15,105 bases of DNA from a virus (Duplodnaviria > Heunggongvirae > Uroviricota > Caudoviricetes), in the IMG/VR virus record IMGVR_UViG_3300025466_001444; one strand, given 5' to 3'. Below are positions 11,110 through 14,216 of this stretch, piece after piece. The notes under the pieces are model-generated. The model was not told where the DNA came from, did no database searches, and saw only the letters and a program-made list of their open reading frames with translations. Every line of letters starts with the position of its first letter. Positions within the stretch are counted from its first letter, which is position 1. The position numbers were made by a program, and so were the translations under genes.

Positions 11110-11187
11110 TGGAAGGGAAGATGGGAGTCGAACCCACCTAAAAAGGTTTTGCAGACCTTGCCATAACCGCTCTGGACTCACTTCCCC
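11110..11187 (-). tRNA. trnC: tRNA-Cys(GCA)
   Basis: GGGGAAG/CTTCCCT acceptor stem, U73 discriminator, AAGGT-CTGCAAA-ACCTT anticodon arm, TTCGACT T-loop, CCA. Confidence 0.9.
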
Positions 11188-11198
11188 GTATAAAGTAA

Positions 11199-11271
11199 TG
11201 GTGGAGTAAGTGGGACTCGAACCCACCTCAGATTCCTTGCAAAGGATTCCTGCTTGCCCTGAGCCTACCCC
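11199..11271 (-). tRNA. trnA: Atypical tRNA-Ala(UGC) with shortened D-arm region
   Basis: GGGGTAG/TTACTCC acceptor with G3:U70, loop TT-TGC-AA, perfect T-arm GTGGG-TTCGAGT-CCCAC, CCA. Only 16 nt lie between the acceptor and anticodon stems, and the anticodon stem has one mismatch. Confidence 0.7.
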
Positions 11272-11791
11272 AAGTATTTACATATTCTAGTACCTTATCT
11301 TCTATAAGGTATTTATGTTTGCTGTGCATGTACTGATGATGTGTCGGACATAATGGAACAAGATTTTCTGGTCTATTATCATTATGATTTTCATTTAAAT
11401 GATGAACAGCTACAACATTAACTTCTTCGCATACTAAACATTTTCTTTCATGATATCTCCAAGCAATAGTAACATATGTAGCTACCTCATCATAGTGATA
11501 TTTTTCAGATTTGGCTTTACCACCAATACTATTGGCACAACTTCTTGAACAAAAATATTGAGATTTAGAAGGGAATAAATTTTTTCTTTCTTCAACTTCA
11601 AATTCATTATTACAAGATTTACAAATAACAGAAAATTTTATGAAAGTTCCAAATCTTTTATCACTAGATTTGCTTATTTTATCATACGAAACTTTTCTAT
11701 TAGGATTTTTCTCACAATGTTTACTATGATTACCTTTTTCAGTTGTACGATTAAAATCAAATTCTTGATTGCAGTGTTTACATTTCCACAT
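11228..11791 (-). CDS. Zinc-finger HNH endonuclease (putative free-standing homing endonuclease)
   Basis: CKHC...HSKHC and CKSC...CSRSC Zn-binding motifs; C-terminal CLVC...VHHLNENHNDNRPENLVPLCPTHH HNH motif; SD GGAG. Confidence 0.85.
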   Translation of the reverse strand: MWKCKHCNQEFDFNRTTEKGNHSKHCEKNPNRKVSYDKISKSSDKRFGTFIKFSVICKSCNNEFEVEERKNLFPSKSQYFCSRSCANSIGGKAKSEKYHYDEVATYVTIAWRYHERKCLVCEEVNVVAVHHLNENHNDNRPENLVPLCPTHHQYMHSKHKYLIEDKVLEYVNTWGRLRASRNPLQGI

Positions 11792-11990: not shown

Positions 11991-13424
11991 TTAGAAAGTA
12001 TAACGCTCATTCATGACTGCCTTCATCATAATAGCCTCTGGAGTAAATTCTTCCATGCCACCAGCAAGAACTGCCTTTAGAATGGAAGGAGAAAACCCAG
12101 AAACAAGTGCTGTTCCATTCTTATCGAACTTCACAGGAACATTATCATTAGAATTGAGATTCCAGAAAACAATCTTAGGAACTTCATATCCAGACTCAGC
12201 ATACTTACGCTCAATCATTTCAATACCAGAATCATCATAAGTGGCACATGAATCAAATTGCATATCAGAAAGAATCAAAAGAATCTTTGGCATTTCAGAC
12301 TGAGGAACATCACCAGCAACTGCTACCCCAAGAATCTTATGAATAGCCTTATGCAAATCAGTATTCATAGTCCAATTAGACCCAACCATTTGCTCAATCT
12401 TTTGAACAATATTTCCCTTAAGATGAAGCAATTCAGGATTGGCAGAGAAAGTTAGAAATGTATCCTTGAACTTACCAGTGTTTTTATCAGCAAGATACAA
12501 ACCAAGAGACACAGCAACATCAAGACAAGTAGTTCCAGACTTACTATTATATCTCCCAGCAGGACAAGTCATTGAACCAGAAACATCAACCAAAGGAAGA
12601 ATGTTTGCATCACCAACATAGTTGGGAAGAGCATCCCATTGGGCAGTAATATGATCAAGATTGGACTTGTTATAATCCATACGATAATGAGTAATTACAC
12701 CCTTTAATATATCGTAAGGATACACTGCACCAGCATTGACCTTAACAGAAGCCTTCACCTCTGGATCGGTAGAAACAAGAGCAGAAGTCCACTCCTTATA
12801 CTTATCGGTATGACGGGCAAATGCCTTCTTATAACGAGTAGAAGCAACAGAAGGAACATTATTGAAATTGATATTATCCCAATCCTTAGCACACATCTGA
12901 GTTTCGACAACCTTGGTCAATTCAACCAGACGCTTACGATAGAACTTAGGAGTCCAACCAAGGTGCTTACGGAGCTTCACAGCTACTTCACCCTGACGAG
13001 GCATCCACTTTGCGCAGAGACCCATATTGTCTTCAAGAGCAATACGGATCATATAGAATGCCTGTTCCTCCATAGGAGTACCAACAAGTACAAGCAGATC
13101 ATCCCAACGACCAAGCTCAGGAACCTTACGCATCACATCAGATGCACGAACCCGATCAGTGTTTGCCATATCAACAAGGATATCACGGAAGATCTTACGT
13201 TCGCCAGCACCACCACGAACGTCACGAGCCCAAAGAGCAATACGAGTTGCAAGCTCCTTGTCCTGAACATAAGCAGCAGTCCAAGCAGGAATTACATTTT
13301 GACCACGCATAGCGCCGATTTTGAAGAAAAGTGATGTTAATGCATTACCTGTATCTTTACGAGCTTTCATTCCATTAGTTGTTCTTTCAGATTGATTTTT
13401 CACTGCTTCTGTAAAAGTAGTCAT
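11991..13424 (-). CDS. TROVE/Ro60-like protein with C-terminal vWA domain (DUF2828-like)
   Basis: WARDVRGGAGER, GRWDDL, AKWMPR, vWA MIDAS DVSGSM, LSDMQFD, FWNL and VSGFS motifs; SD AAGGAG. Confidence 0.88.
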   Translation of the reverse strand: MTTFTEAVKNQSERTTNGMKARKDTGNALTSLFFKIGAMRGQNVIPAWTAAYVQDKELATRIALWARDVRGGAGERKIFRDILVDMANTDRVRASDVMRKVPELGRWDDLLVLVGTPMEEQAFYMIRIALEDNMGLCAKWMPRQGEVAVKLRKHLGWTPKFYRKRLVELTKVVETQMCAKDWDNINFNNVPSVASTRYKKAFARHTDKYKEWTSALVSTDPEVKASVKVNAGAVYPYDILKGVITHYRMDYNKSNLDHITAQWDALPNYVGDANILPLVDVSGSMTCPAGRYNSKSGTTCLDVAVSLGLYLADKNTGKFKDTFLTFSANPELLHLKGNIVQKIEQMVGSNWTMNTDLHKAIHKILGVAVAGDVPQSEMPKILLILSDMQFDSCATYDDSGIEMIERKYAESGYEVPKIVFWNLNSNDNVPVKFDKNGTALVSGFSPSILKAVLAGGMEEFTPEAIMMKAVMNERYTF

Positions 13425-13452
13425 TTTATATCTCCTTTGCTGTTATCAATCT
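13389..13452 (-). promoter_or_regulatory. Putative translational operator: array-type stem/CAGCA motif enclosing the TROVE SD and start codon
   Basis: AGATTGAT-AA-CAGCAAAGGAG-ATATAAA-ATG...ATCAATCT-G. 8-bp stem, CAGCA at position 11 and G after the stem, as in the array units. Confidence 0.65.
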
Positions 13453-13507
13453 TAACGTTTCTTATAAATACATTATCAATCACACATAGGACCGACAATG
13501 AAATATT

Positions 13508-13536
13508 ATATTAATATACTCTCTAATTATTGTCAA
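13508..13536 (-). promoter_or_regulatory. Sigma70-like promoter for the TROVE gene
   Basis: TTGACA (13536-13531), 17-nt spacer, TAATAT (13513-13508). Confidence 0.6.
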
Positions 13537-13542
13537 CTCAAC

Positions 13543-13715
13543 AGGTTAGTCGCATCATTATGGTACACCACTCAGATTGTAATACAAGACTACAACAAGT
13601 CAGGTTATTATGCAGTCCCCGCAGGAACCACGACCATCCAGTAGGCAAATGCCTTCGCTCTACCGCCTGCGCTGTTATCACGCTTTCAAATGCAGCTGTT
13701 TGCTGTATCTAACCT
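13543..13715 (-). ncRNA. Array unit E1 (173 nt), stem/CAGCA handle with degenerate tRNA-like cargo
   Basis: AGGTTAG-ATA-CAGCAAAC...CTAACCT-G. Internal D-arm-like AGCGCAGGCGGTAGAGCG and GGTCGTGGTTC. Confidence 0.7.
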
Positions 13716-13724
13716 TTATTCAAC

Positions 13725-13783
13725 AGGGTCAACTTTGGTCTTTTGTATGCAAAAAGATTTTTTATAGTTGCTGAACTGACCCT
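13725..13783 (-). ncRNA. Array unit E2 (59 nt)
   Basis: AGGGTCA-GTT-CAGCAAC...AAGT-TGACCCT-G; apical TCTTTT/AAAAGA hairpin. Confidence 0.75.
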
Positions 13784-13799
13784 TAAACTCTAACTCATC

Positions 13800-13857
13800 A
13801 GGATTGCCCTTTGCAGGTTTGATTACAAGTCAAGTGCATATATGCTGTAACAATCCT
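13800..13857 (-). ncRNA. Array unit E3 (58 nt), carries a Thr(UGU)-type anticodon stem-loop
   Basis: AGGATTG-TTA-CAGCATA...CAATCCT-G; internal TTGA-CTTGTAA-TCAA. Confidence 0.75.
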
Positions 13858-13867
13858 AAAACTCTAC

Positions 13868-13956
13868 AGGTTTCACTTTTTGCTGGGTTTGAACCAGCTA
13901 AAAAACCACGTAAAAGGCAGTTTTTATTATCCTAGAATGTTTGCTGAAGGAAACCT
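13868..13956 (-). ncRNA. Array unit E4 (89 nt), carries a T-arm
   Basis: AGGTTTC-CTT-CAGCAAAC...GAAACCT-G; internal GCTGG-TTCAAAC-CCAGC. Confidence 0.75.
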
Positions 13957-13975
13957 AAAACTTAATACTTATAAC

Positions 13976-14111
13976 AGATTGACTTCTACTTTCATTTTTT
14001 AAAGTGGATTCTATCGAAACATAACCACTTAAATTATGCCACATGGACACAATTATACGTAACAACAAAGTTACTAGACCGATAAAATGAGGTTTGCTGG
14101 AAGGTCAATCT
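13976..14111 (-). ncRNA. Array unit E5 (136 nt), cloverleaf-like cargo
   Basis: AGATTGAC-C-TTC-CAGCAAAC...GAA-GTCAATCT-G (bulged C); inner TCATTTT/AAAATGA stem carrying three hairpins. Confidence 0.7.
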
Positions 14112-14121
14112 TAAATTTTAC

Positions 14122-14179
14122 TGGATCAACTTGGGTCTTTTTTTGCGAAAGATTTTTGTTAGGTTGCTGAACTGATCCA
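14122..14179 (-). ncRNA. Array unit E6 (58 nt), paralog of E2; first unit in transcription order
   Basis: TGGATCA-GTT-CAGCAAC...AAGT-TGATCCA-G; compensatory stem changes relative to E2. Confidence 0.75.
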
Positions 14180-14187
14180 TAAACAGT

Positions 14188-14216
14188 ATATTAAACTACT
14201 TTCTTAAAGGTGTCAA
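14188..14216 (-). promoter_or_regulatory. Sigma70-like promoter driving the RNA array
   Basis: TTGACA (14216-14211), 17-nt spacer, TAATAT (14193-14188). The predicted start (about 14180) abuts the first base of E6. Confidence 0.7.

What the first reader, a model, noticed from the sequence alone, without database searches (positions are those of the whole stretch)
13389..13452. Seventh copy of the array motif wraps the TROVE gene's own SD and start codon: candidate autoregulatory operator
Seen: the minus strand reads AGATTGAT-AA-CAGCA-AAGGAG-ATATAAA-ATG-ACTACTTTTACAGAAGCAGTGAAAA-ATCAATCT-G. It has an 8-bp stem, CAGCA at nt 11 abutting the SD, and a G after the stem. The 3' stem strand lies in codons 10-12 (N-Q-S). 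The stem sequence AGATTGA/TCAATCT is the same as in E5. Inference: the protein binds this site to repress its own translation, and the array RNAs titrate it, as in ribosomal-protein feedback. This is independent support that CAGCA plus stem is the TROVE protein's binding site.
Basis: partly seen in the sequence, partly recalled or inferred. Interest (0 to 1): 0.88.

Follow-up and report, generated by a model that had tools for sequence, protein, structure and literature searches.

The report
Y-RNA-like handle around Ro-like start codon
In this uncultured T4-like phage, the ribosome-binding site and start codon of a Ro60-like RNA-binding protein gene sit inside a copy of the short stem-plus-CAGCAA "handle" carried by the neighbouring small RNAs, so the protein may control its own synthesis; the copy is real but unique to this phage among its close relatives, and its function is untested.

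Summary
On the minus strand, 13452-13389 reads AGATTGAT-AA-CAGCAA-SD-ATG-...-ATCAATCT-G. This is a perfect 8-bp stem whose 3' arm lies in codons 10-12.

Support for a real family member:
- A covariance model built only from 52 handle RNAs of other phages hits it at 30.9 bits, equal to two array members. The best background hit is 10.3 bits.
- The gene product folds like Ro60, although Pfam calls it DUF2828/DUF7788.

Weaknesses:
- The wrap is not conserved. None of about 100 other distinct homologous loci has it.
- In 95 of 103 loci, a complete handle instead ends 6-38 nt upstream of the ATG.
- In this phage that last handle was replaced by a promoter-like cassette plus the 5' half-handle.
- The 3' arm is set by the near-invariant N10-Q11 codons.
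- I estimate chance pairing at 0.1-4%, depending on what is held fixed.
- Folding energy is not better than shuffled sequence.

Independent support comes from the KVP40-group vibriophages. They carry one CAGCA handle in the leader of the same gene, enclosing the SD, with the AUG in its 3' arm.

This scan had already noted the RNA family on other DNA. An autoregulatory operator is plausible (about 0.4) but unproven.

The parts
13389..13452 (-). E7: handle-type element (8-bp closing stem, AA, CAGCAA) with the SD, the ATG and codons 2-9 in its 46-nt loop
   Evidence: Sequence. Strict scan. Model R1, built from other phages, gives 30.9 bits over 13455-13386. The element meets all 11 invariant positions of the 52-sequence alignment A2.
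13445..13452 (-). 5' arm AGATTGAT, preceded by TTA as in other units
   Evidence: The eighth base, T, is unique among 224 genuine 5' halves. These have C in the E2 type or G in the last-element type. The T pairs with the fixed second base of the Asn10 codon.
13437..13442 (-). CAGCAA handle motif, overlapping the first A of the SD AAGGAG (13437-13432)
   Evidence: C, G, C and A are invariant in alignment A2.
13422..13424 (-). ATG start codon of the 477-aa Ro60-like gene (CDS 13424-11991)
   Evidence: ORF list. The N-terminus aligns with 38 homologs from residue 1.
13389..13396 (-). 3' arm ATCAATCT within codons 10-12 (N-Q-S), followed by G13388 of codon 13
   Evidence: N10 and Q11 are conserved in at least 90% of homologs. 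The same 8-mer sits at the same codons in 4 of 103 other distinct homologs that have no wrap.
13508..13536 (-). P2: sigma-70-like promoter match TTGACA-17-TAATAT between the array and E7. It has the same hexamers as P1 at 14216-14188.
   Evidence: a consensus match only. It lies in the roughly 110-nt segment that replaces the ancestral last handle.
13471..13500 (-). 11-bp hairpin at the predicted 5' end of a P2 transcript. Its 3' strand holds a second copy of GATTGATAA (13481-13473).
   Evidence: and the sequence.
13543..14179 (-). Array of six handle RNAs (14179-14122, 14111-13976, 13957-13867, 13859-13798, 13783-13725, 13715-13543), the proposed competitors of E7
   Evidence: Orthologous units occur in relatives.
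11991..13424 (-). Ro60-like protein gene (DUF2828 + DUF7788; helical-repeat ring plus vWA domain with a DxSGS MIDAS motif)
   Evidence: Pfam. PHROG 850 'RNA-binding protein'. AlphaFold model with pLDDT 77. The top 13 PDB fold matches are all Ro60/TROVE, with E down to 2e-8 and TM 0.55-0.58.

Best explanation
E7 is a genuine cis copy of the stem-plus-CAGCAA handle that marks the small RNAs travelling with this Ro60-like protein. It is built into the protein's own mRNA.

Proposed mechanism:
- The closing stem joins positions -28 to -21 with +29 to +36.
- The handle motif sits at -18 to -13, directly against the SD at -13 to -8.
- When the protein exceeds its free handle RNAs (units E1-E6, transcribed from P1), it binds this site, covers the SD and blocks 30S binding.
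- This sets protein level to RNA level, as in the autogenous control of ribosomal proteins, T4 gp32 and gp43, and the MS2 coat protein.

Shown here:
- the sequence and its pairing
- family membership by an independent model
- the Ro60-like fold of the protein
- the replacement history of the locus
- recurrence of RBS-embedded handles in a second phage lineage

Inferred only:
- that the protein binds the handle
- that binding represses translation
- that the array RNAs compete
For: 1. Model R1 was built from 52 last-position handles of other phages. Their closing stem is 100% paired over 7 bp, with changes on both sides at four of those pairs. R1 scores E7 at 30.9 bits, level with array units at 30.2 and 29.7 bits; the best background hit is 10.3 bits.
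2. Every hit of at least 7 bp on the gene strand of the 44.7-kb genome piece is an array unit or E7.
3. Chance pairing is low. Only 0.12% of 23,296 chimeras of genuine 5' halves with homolog CDS starts reach 8 bp plus G. None of 224 genuine halves reaches 8 bp on this CDS.
4. The eighth arm base, T, is unique in the family and matches a base fixed by the invariant Asn10 codon.
5. In 95 of 103 distinct homolog loci a complete handle ends 6-38 nt before the ATG. This phage lost that unit to a promoter-like cassette, yet it still has a handle at the RBS.
6. Independent recurrence. Seven KVP40-group phages have their own promoter, then GACATT-N3-CAGCA, the SD, and AATGTC containing the AUG. D479 differs in both arm and partner (AGAAAT/ATTTCT-G), with the SD in the 3' arm. 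Scrambled-motif controls give 0-1 of 201 loci.
7. The protein folds like Ro60. A phage Ro60 has been shown to bind Y-like RNAs encoded upstream of its gene (PMC12135203).
Against: - The wrap is unique to this phage. 0 of 102 other distinct loci in the clade have it, and no relative closer than 78% protein identity was found, so there is no covariation for this stem.
- The 3' arm needs no selection for pairing. N10 and Q11 are near-invariant, AAT-CAA-TCT is the likeliest spelling, and the same 8-mer occurs at these codons in four homologs without a wrap.
- The 5' half can be read as a leftover or copy of an E2-type or last-unit half. 10 of 224 family halves already give 7 bp with this CDS, which raises the conditional chance to 1-4%.
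- The folding energy is no better than shuffles.
- The close spacing of the last handle to the SD in relatives may only reflect compact packing.
- The KVP40-group stem is only 6 bp, is invariant in seven phages, and is thermodynamically weak.
- No binding or expression data exist.
Confidence: 0.4

Rival explanations
1. Evolutionary leftover with accidental pairing. A rearrangement put a promoter-plus-hairpin cassette in place of the ancestral last handle and left or copied only a 5' half-handle next to the SD. That half happens to match a coding 8-mer that exists for protein reasons. The stem has no role.
For: - The closest relatives (L088, L085, L011) share the two preceding units, then carry a complete last handle plus SD where this phage has about 110 nt of unrelated sequence.
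- The 3' arm is coding-constrained and spelled with the commonest codons.
- The arm core AGATTGA is a common family arm: 10 of 224 halves pair 7 bp with this CDS.
- There is no conservation elsewhere in the clade.
- The fold energy is not significant.
Against: - The full 8 bp plus G is reached by 0 of 224 real halves on this CDS and by 0.12% of all chimeras.
- The unique eighth base extends the helix.
- The element's total span (64 nt) and layout match ordinary short units, and the external model scores it as a complete unit.
- RBS-embedded handles recur in the KVP40 group.
Confidence: 0.3
2. The handle in cis is functional but is not a translational repressor. It could load newly made protein onto its own mRNA or mark the transcript for the protein's partner nuclease. 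It could also act as a processing or stability signal, as the last array unit next to the SD may do in relatives.
For: - A handle lies next to the RBS in 95 of 103 loci, where it could define the mature 5' end of the mRNA.
- Ro60 with Y RNA is known to direct PNPase to RNAs (PMC4201824, PMC12135203).
- A P2 transcript would also carry a 5' hairpin typical of stabilisers.
Against: - Cutting at the 3' side of E7, as expected for a released unit, would sever the mRNA at codon 12.
- E7 lacks the GTTGA-type spacer that follows free units.
- The motif-to-SD contact makes interference with initiation the simplest consequence of any binding.
Confidence: 0.18
3. An RNA-only switch. The CDS arm pairs either with the E7 arm or with the second GATTGATAA copy in the 5' hairpin (13481-13473), tuning translation without the protein.
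For: The 9-nt direct repeat GATTGATAA occurs twice, 30 nt apart (13481-13473 and 13451-13443). The first copy lies in the 3' strand of the predicted 5' hairpin.
Against: - Neither pairing sequesters the SD or the AUG themselves.
- All the helices are weak.
- No homolog shows the repeat.
Confidence: 0.07

Closest known systems
Autogenous translational operators that mimic the protein's main nucleic-acid ligand: E. coli ribosomal proteins (L1, S8, L20, S15), T4 gp32, gp43 and RegA, MS2/R17 coat protein, ThrRS (my own knowledge of the literature)
   Same: A cis site at the RBS resembles the protein's normal RNA partner. Excess free protein would bind it and block initiation. T4-type phages use this logic repeatedly. 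In MS2 the start codon lies inside the bound hairpin, as in the KVP40-group variant.
   Different: - Binding and repression are not shown here.
- The SD and AUG sit in a 46-nt loop closed by a long-range 8-bp stem, not in a compact hairpin.
- The proposed competitors are an array of phage-encoded small RNAs.
- The protein is a Ro60-type ring. My searches found no paper describing such a feedback for Ro60.
Ro60 (Rsr/TROVE) with Y RNAs in bacteria and phages: YrlA/YrlB, Yrn1, and Thermus phage phiLo Ro60 with Yrl1/Yrl2 (PMC4201824, PMC12135203)
   Same: - A ring-shaped Ro60 fold with a vWA/MIDAS domain.
- Small RNAs encoded on the same strand just upstream of the gene.
- A 5'-3' closing stem next to a short conserved single-stranded motif.
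- One unit with a tRNA-like body.
   Different: - The protein matches Pfam DUF2828/DUF7788, not TROVE, and has no sequence-level PDB match.
- The motif is C[AC]GCA(A), not GNCGAA/CGAA.
- No Rfam Y RNA family matches at E up to 1.
- A Y-like handle enclosing the protein's own RBS is not described in those papers.
Dictyostelid Class I RNAs (PMC7919456)
   Same: They are 42-65 nt long, with a short stem joining the 5' and 3' ends, a conserved motif directly 3' of the 5' stem strand, and a variable body. Earlier notes of this scan report that the handle sequences match.
   Different: They are eukaryotic and reported as unique to Dictyostelia. The Rfam scan of this window gave no such hit at E up to 1. 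I did not compare the motif sequences myself, and no link to an RBS is known.
Leader handle of the Ro60-like gene in KVP40-group vibriophages (found here; L161:1466-1505)
   Same: The same gene family, with its own sigma-70-like promoter and then a single stem-N3-CAGCA element whose loop holds the SD. The block GA[C/A]ATT-NN-ACAGCA is invariant in 8 phages while its flanks vary.
   Different: - The stem is 6 bp, and the AUG lies in the 3' arm rather than the loop.
- The arms lack the AG...CT-G signature of the freshwater clade.
- Model R1 found no handle array within 1.5 kb.
- The element is lost in D480 and D490 after a homing-endonuclease insertion.

Membership tests
Stem-C[AC]GCA(A) handle RNAs that accompany DUF2828-type Ro60-like genes | Closing helix of at least 6-7 bp joining the two ends | tested here: met
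   8 contiguous Watson-Crick pairs, 13452-13445 with 13396-13389.
Stem-C[AC]GCA(A) handle RNAs that accompany DUF2828-type Ro60-like genes | C[AC]GCA(A) 0-5 nt after the 5' arm, plus the invariant positions A-G..T / A..C-T-G of the clade | tested here: met
   The gap is AA, followed by CAGCAA. All 11 invariant columns of alignment A2 are satisfied (one search compared with the sequence).
Stem-C[AC]GCA(A) handle RNAs that accompany DUF2828-type Ro60-like genes | Scores above background with a covariance model built without this genome | tested here: met
   R1 gives 30.9 bits and a rough E of 7e-6. The next non-array hit scores 10.3 bits.
Stem-C[AC]GCA(A) handle RNAs that accompany DUF2828-type Ro60-like genes | Free-standing non-coding unit followed by a GT(T/A)GA-type spacer | tested here: not met
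   The loop holds the SD, the ATG and codons 2-9. The 3' arm is coding and is followed by GAAAG.
Stem-C[AC]GCA(A) handle RNAs that accompany DUF2828-type Ro60-like genes | Orthologous unit with a covarying stem in related phages | tested here: not met
   No other locus of 103 distinct ones has it. L001 is identical DNA.
Autogenous translational operator | Cis element overlapping or touching the RBS of the regulator's own mRNA | tested here: met
   The motif ends at the first base of AAGGAG. The stem brackets -28 to +36.
Autogenous translational operator | Element resembles the regulator's primary RNA ligand | tested here: inconclusive
   It resembles the array units. That these units are the protein's ligands is inferred only from co-occurrence and from the Ro60 fold.
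Autogenous translational operator | The protein binds the element and binding lowers translation | not testable with these tools
   This needs EMSA or filter binding, toeprinting and reporter fusions.
Autogenous translational operator | Arrangement conserved or recurrent in homologs | tested here: inconclusive
   The wrap is absent from the clade, but a handle abuts the SD in 95 of 103 loci. A separate wrap exists in 7-8 KVP40-group phages.
Canonical Y RNA (Rfam Y_RNA / YrlA type) | Match to Rfam models; GNCGAA or CGAA Ro-binding motif | tested here: not met
   No Y RNA family hit in the window at E up to 1. The motif here is CAGCAA.
Ro60/TROVE proteins (for the gene the element belongs to) | Ring of helical repeats plus a vWA domain with MIDAS | tested here: met
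   Full-length fold matches to 9kop, 9l5y, 1yvr, 2i91 and 2nvo (E 2e-8 to 6e-7). D280-x-S282-G283-S284 is invariant.
Ro60/TROVE proteins (for the gene the element belongs to) | Match to the Pfam TROVE model | tested here: not met
   Only DUF7788 and DUF2828 are reported, even at E up to 10. There is no sequence match to PDB chains.

The most novel reading that the evidence does not exclude
Ro60-type proteins of phages sense the ratio of protein to partner RNA through a Y-RNA-like handle built around their own ribosome-binding site. This design arose at least twice: as a loop-type wrap in this freshwater T4-like phage, and as an AUG-in-stem type in KVP40-group vibriophages. It may also underlie the near-universal placement of the last handle against the SD. 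If true, it would be the first feedback loop described for the Ro60 family, and it would directly define the protein's RNA recognition site.
Probability: 0.3. Interest if true: 0.7.

Novelty: new variant of a known kind. Interest (0 to 1): 0.5.

Why it matters
If the element works as proposed, it gives the undescribed DUF2828-type Ro60-like proteins a minimal, testable binding site: an 8-bp stem plus CAGCAA. These proteins occur in over 700 sequenced phages, and a Felixounavirus member, whose membership of the family I infer, is reported to counter the Ppl defence system (PMC11482910).

It would also give a simple reporter assay for binding in vivo and a regulatory logic that links the protein to its partner RNAs. 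KVP40 and Synechococcus phage BUCT-ZZ01 are cultured systems in which the related arrangements could be tested.

If the element is only a leftover, the finding still documents how a promoter cassette replaced the conserved last RNA unit in one lineage.

Tried and rejected
- Closer relatives to test covariation: protein-guided scans of viral contigs and of metagenome contigs found nothing between 78% and 100% identity. The single 100% hit, L001, is identical DNA over 4,238 nt.
- Thermodynamic support: none. z is -0.8 to +0.1 for three windows around E7 and +0.6 for the KVP40 leader.
- Codon-level selection for the 3' arm: rejected, because the codons used are the commonest ones.
- Long-range pairing of the upstream E2-type arm with the CDS as a conserved feature: the co-occurrence of E2-type arms with TCARTCTG in the CDS follows one clade and is not strict, so I do not count it as evidence.
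- Apparent wraps of other loci at +86 to +99: these rest on G-U pairs and A/T runs against the conserved V-D-L-F-F codons, and each has a proper 3' arm upstream. I treat them as chance.
- The P2-hairpin cassette as a repeated PeSL-type shuffling module: no second copy exists in the 44.7-kb genome piece or in the fetched loci.
- Megablast of the region against GenBank phages: no match.
- Rfam: no family matches the array or E7.
- The literature searches turned up no paper on the RNAs that accompany DUF2828 proteins, and none describing Ro60 autoregulation.
- Felixounavirus wV8, Klebsiella phage FBKp34, Listeria phage cka15, mycobacteriophage Jobypre and Staphylococcus phage CF9 show no CAGCA handle at the start of the gene, so the arrangement is not universal.
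Full report
**What is in the sequence**

- AGATTGAT at 13452-13445
- AA
- CAGCA at 13442-13438, followed by A
- the SD AAGGAG at 13437-13432
- seven bases of spacer
- ATG at 13424-13422
- codons 2-9
- ATCAATCT at 13396-13389
- G at 13388

The two 8-mers are perfect complements. The 3' arm covers the last two bases of Asn10, then Gln11 and Ser12. The 7-nt core is the same as in the array unit at 14111-13976.

The gene (13424-11991, 477 aa) matches Pfam DUF7788 and DUF2828 rather than TROVE. It has no sequence-level match in the PDB. An AlphaFold model built on 39 homologs (pLDDT 77) nevertheless finds only Ro60/TROVE structures as its top 13 hits, aligned over the full length (E 2e-8, TM 0.55-0.58). 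A DxSGS MIDAS motif is invariant. "Ro60-like" is therefore justified by fold.

**Is it a member of the array family?**

Upstream, on the same strand, lie six units. Each has an arm of 7-10 bp, then 0-4 nt, CAGCA(A), a variable body, the complementary arm, and G. A strict scan of the 44.7-kb genome piece finds seven such hits on this strand. These are the six units and E7. Only three unrelated hits lie on the other strand.

For an independent test I collected the unit nearest the gene from 52 other phages (alignment A2).
- Its first seven stem pairs are paired in all 52 sequences.
- Four of those pairs show changes on both sides.
- A covariance model built from this alignment (R1) contains nothing from this phage.
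- R1 scores E7 at 30.9 bits, between the array units (50.1, 41.6, 30.2 and 29.7 bits).
- The best background hit in the window is 10.3 bits.
- E7 also satisfies all eleven invariant columns of A2.

I fetched 160 loci with homologs of 52-78% identity, plus one identical copy. I then added about 150 more from the KVP40 and Cronobacter S13 branches.
- Among 103 distinct start regions of the first set, none but this phage has a handle around the RBS.
- Instead, 95 of 103 have a complete handle whose 3' arm ends 6-38 nt (mostly 13-21 nt) before the ATG.
- Synechococcus phage BUCT-ZZ01 and Campylobacter phage F207 show the same layout.
- The motif lies 54-75 nt from the ATG in most loci, with a minority at 31-44 nt. 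In this phage it lies 18 nt away, a clear outlier.

The nearest relatives (L088, L085, L011) share the two preceding units almost base for base. They then carry the last unit (AGATTCAGTT-CCGCAA ... AGTGAATCT-G) and the SD. This phage instead has about 110 nt of unrelated sequence:
- a sigma-70-like match, TTGACA-17-TAATAT, at 13536-13508, with the same hexamers as the match in front of the array
- an 11-bp hairpin at 13500-13471
- the 5' half-handle fused to the SD

The wrap is therefore a lineage-specific novelty that came with a rearrangement.

**How likely is the pairing by chance?**

The 3' arm needs no special explanation.
- N10 and Q11 are conserved in at least 90% of homologs.
- AAT, CAA and TCT are the preferred codons here (0.89, 0.71 and 0.46).
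- The same 8-mer followed by G sits at the same codons in four other distinct homologs that have no wrap.

The arm core AGATTGA is also a common family arm. Ten of 224 genuine 5' halves pair 7 bp with this CDS.

Against that:
- No genuine half reaches 8 bp on this CDS.
- Only 0.12% of 23,296 half-by-CDS chimeras reach 8 bp plus G.
- The eighth arm base, T, is unique among the 224 halves. It pairs with the second base of the Asn codon, which cannot change.

I put the chance probability between about 0.1% (family-wide) and 1-4% (holding one side fixed). This is suggestive but found post hoc. Folding energy gives no help. The stem is in the minimum-energy structure, but z is only -0.5 to -0.8.

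**An independent second case**

I scanned all 201 distinct start regions for a CAGCA or CCGCA motif within 60 nt of the ATG whose 5' arm pairs at or beyond the start codon. The scan returned this phage (8 bp) and KVP40 with VH7D (6 bp). Scrambled motifs returned 0-1 loci.

Seven KVP40-group phages were examined: KVP40, VS2, VH7D, nt-1, K566, F86 and 1.081.O, with proteins down to 77% identity.
- The gene has its own promoter-like site.
- It is followed by GACATT-N3-CAGCA, the SD, and AATGTC, in which ATG is the start codon.
- The block GA[C/A]ATT-NN-ACAGCA is invariant while the surrounding leader varies.
- Phage D479 begins ATG-AGC instead of ATG-TCA. Its arm is AGAAAT(T), and it pairs with (GG)ATTTCT-G, which holds part of the SD.
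- D480 and D490, with a homing endonuclease inserted upstream, have lost the arrangement.

The stems are weak and mostly invariant, so this is not proof. It is, however, the same architecture as in the window: an own promoter, a short leader, and one handle over the RBS of the same gene family, in a distant lineage. I could not check it.

**Mechanism**

With the stem formed, the motif occupies -18 to -13 and the SD -13 to -8. The stem brackets -28 to -21 and +29 to +36. From what is known of 30S initiation complexes, which need roughly -20 to +15 single-stranded, a 53-kDa ring bound to the stem and motif would exclude the ribosome. RNA pairing alone would not, because the SD and AUG stay in the loop.

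The best reading is therefore protein-dependent translational autorepression, with the array RNAs as competitors. Confidence is 0.4. Neither binding nor repression has been shown.

Rivals:
- a leftover half-handle with accidental pairing (0.3)
- a cis handle with another role, such as loading, decay targeting or end definition (0.18)
- an RNA-only switch involving the second GATTGATAA copy at 13481-13473 (0.07)

**Comparison with the known**

The logic is that of autogenous operators: ribosomal proteins, T4 gp32, gp43 and RegA, and the MS2 coat protein. The partners are those of Ro60 and Y RNAs.

Phage Ro60 is known to bind Y-like RNAs encoded upstream of its gene (PMC12135203, PMC4201824). 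My searches found no report of a Y-like element around the Ro60 start site or of Ro60 feedback. The handle RNAs are not in Rfam. This scan has already noted the RNA family on other DNA several times. Those notes give Dictyostelium Class I RNAs as the closest match in architecture, which agrees with the description in PMC7919456.

**Verdict**

- It is not conserved in the clade, and its function is untested.
- I rate it a new variant of a known kind of control, with interest 0.5.

Noticed in passing
window 13508-13536 and 14188-14216 (minus strand): Two sigma-70-like matches with identical hexamers, TTGACA-17-TAATAT. One lies in front of the six-unit array. The other lies between the array and the Ro60-like gene. 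The second sits inside sequence that relatives lack.
   Followed up: partly
window 13473-13481 and 13443-13451 (minus strand): A 9-nt direct repeat, GATTGATAA, 30 nt apart. The first copy forms the 3' strand of the 11-bp hairpin at 13500-13471 and could pair with the coding arm in place of the E7 arm.
   Followed up: no
L161:1466-1505 (Vibrio phage KVP40), and L318, L320, L321, L322, L333, L165, L319: KVP40-group phages carry a conserved GA[C/A]ATT-NN-ACAGCA block in the leader of the Ro60-like gene. It pairs with AATGTC across the start codon. D479 has a different arm and partner, with the SD in the stem. Model R1 found no handle array within 1.5 kb of the KVP40 gene.
   Followed up: partly
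L332 and L324 (Vibrio phages D480, D490), about 40 nt before the annotated start: A homing-endonuclease gene is inserted on the opposite strand just upstream of the Ro60-like gene. The leader is rebuilt so that CAGCA directly abuts a new ATG, and the protein gains a different N-terminus (MTSLF instead of MSAF).
   Followed up: no
L082 and L007/L095, 330 nt before the Ro60-like start: A small ORF is inserted between the last handle (with its SD) and the Ro60-like gene. The Ro60-like gene then starts at a coupled GTGAAATG junction, so the handle-SD module now serves the inserted ORF.
   Followed up: no
window 11113-11187 and 11199-11271 (minus strand): Rfam tRNA (36.6 bits) and tmRNA-like (21.8 bits, below threshold) matches that ARAGORN does not call. 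They overlap a 117-aa ORF with no family and the end of an HNH-endonuclease ORF (11228-11791), just downstream of the Ro60-like gene.
   Followed up: no
L328:~295-375 (Campylobacter phage F207) and L162:1334-1481 (Synechococcus phage BUCT-ZZ01): Cultured phages from distant hosts also carry a complete stem-CAGCAA handle ending about 20 nt before the start of the Ro60-like gene. These are possible experimental systems.
   Followed up: partly
L118, L124, L023, L028, L025, L121, L038: last-unit 5' arm versus +86 to +99 of the CDS: In several loci the 5' arm of the last unit can also pair with the codons for the conserved V-D-L-F-F motif, using G-U pairs. The pairing recurs at the same place, but it is probably a by-product of arm and codon composition.
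   Followed up: partly
L161:1431-1455 and the same place in L318, L320, L333: The spacer between the -35-like and -10-like hexamers of the KVP40-group promoter holds a conserved inverted repeat. In KVP40 it reads like a tRNA T-arm (GGGTTCAAATCC).
   Followed up: no
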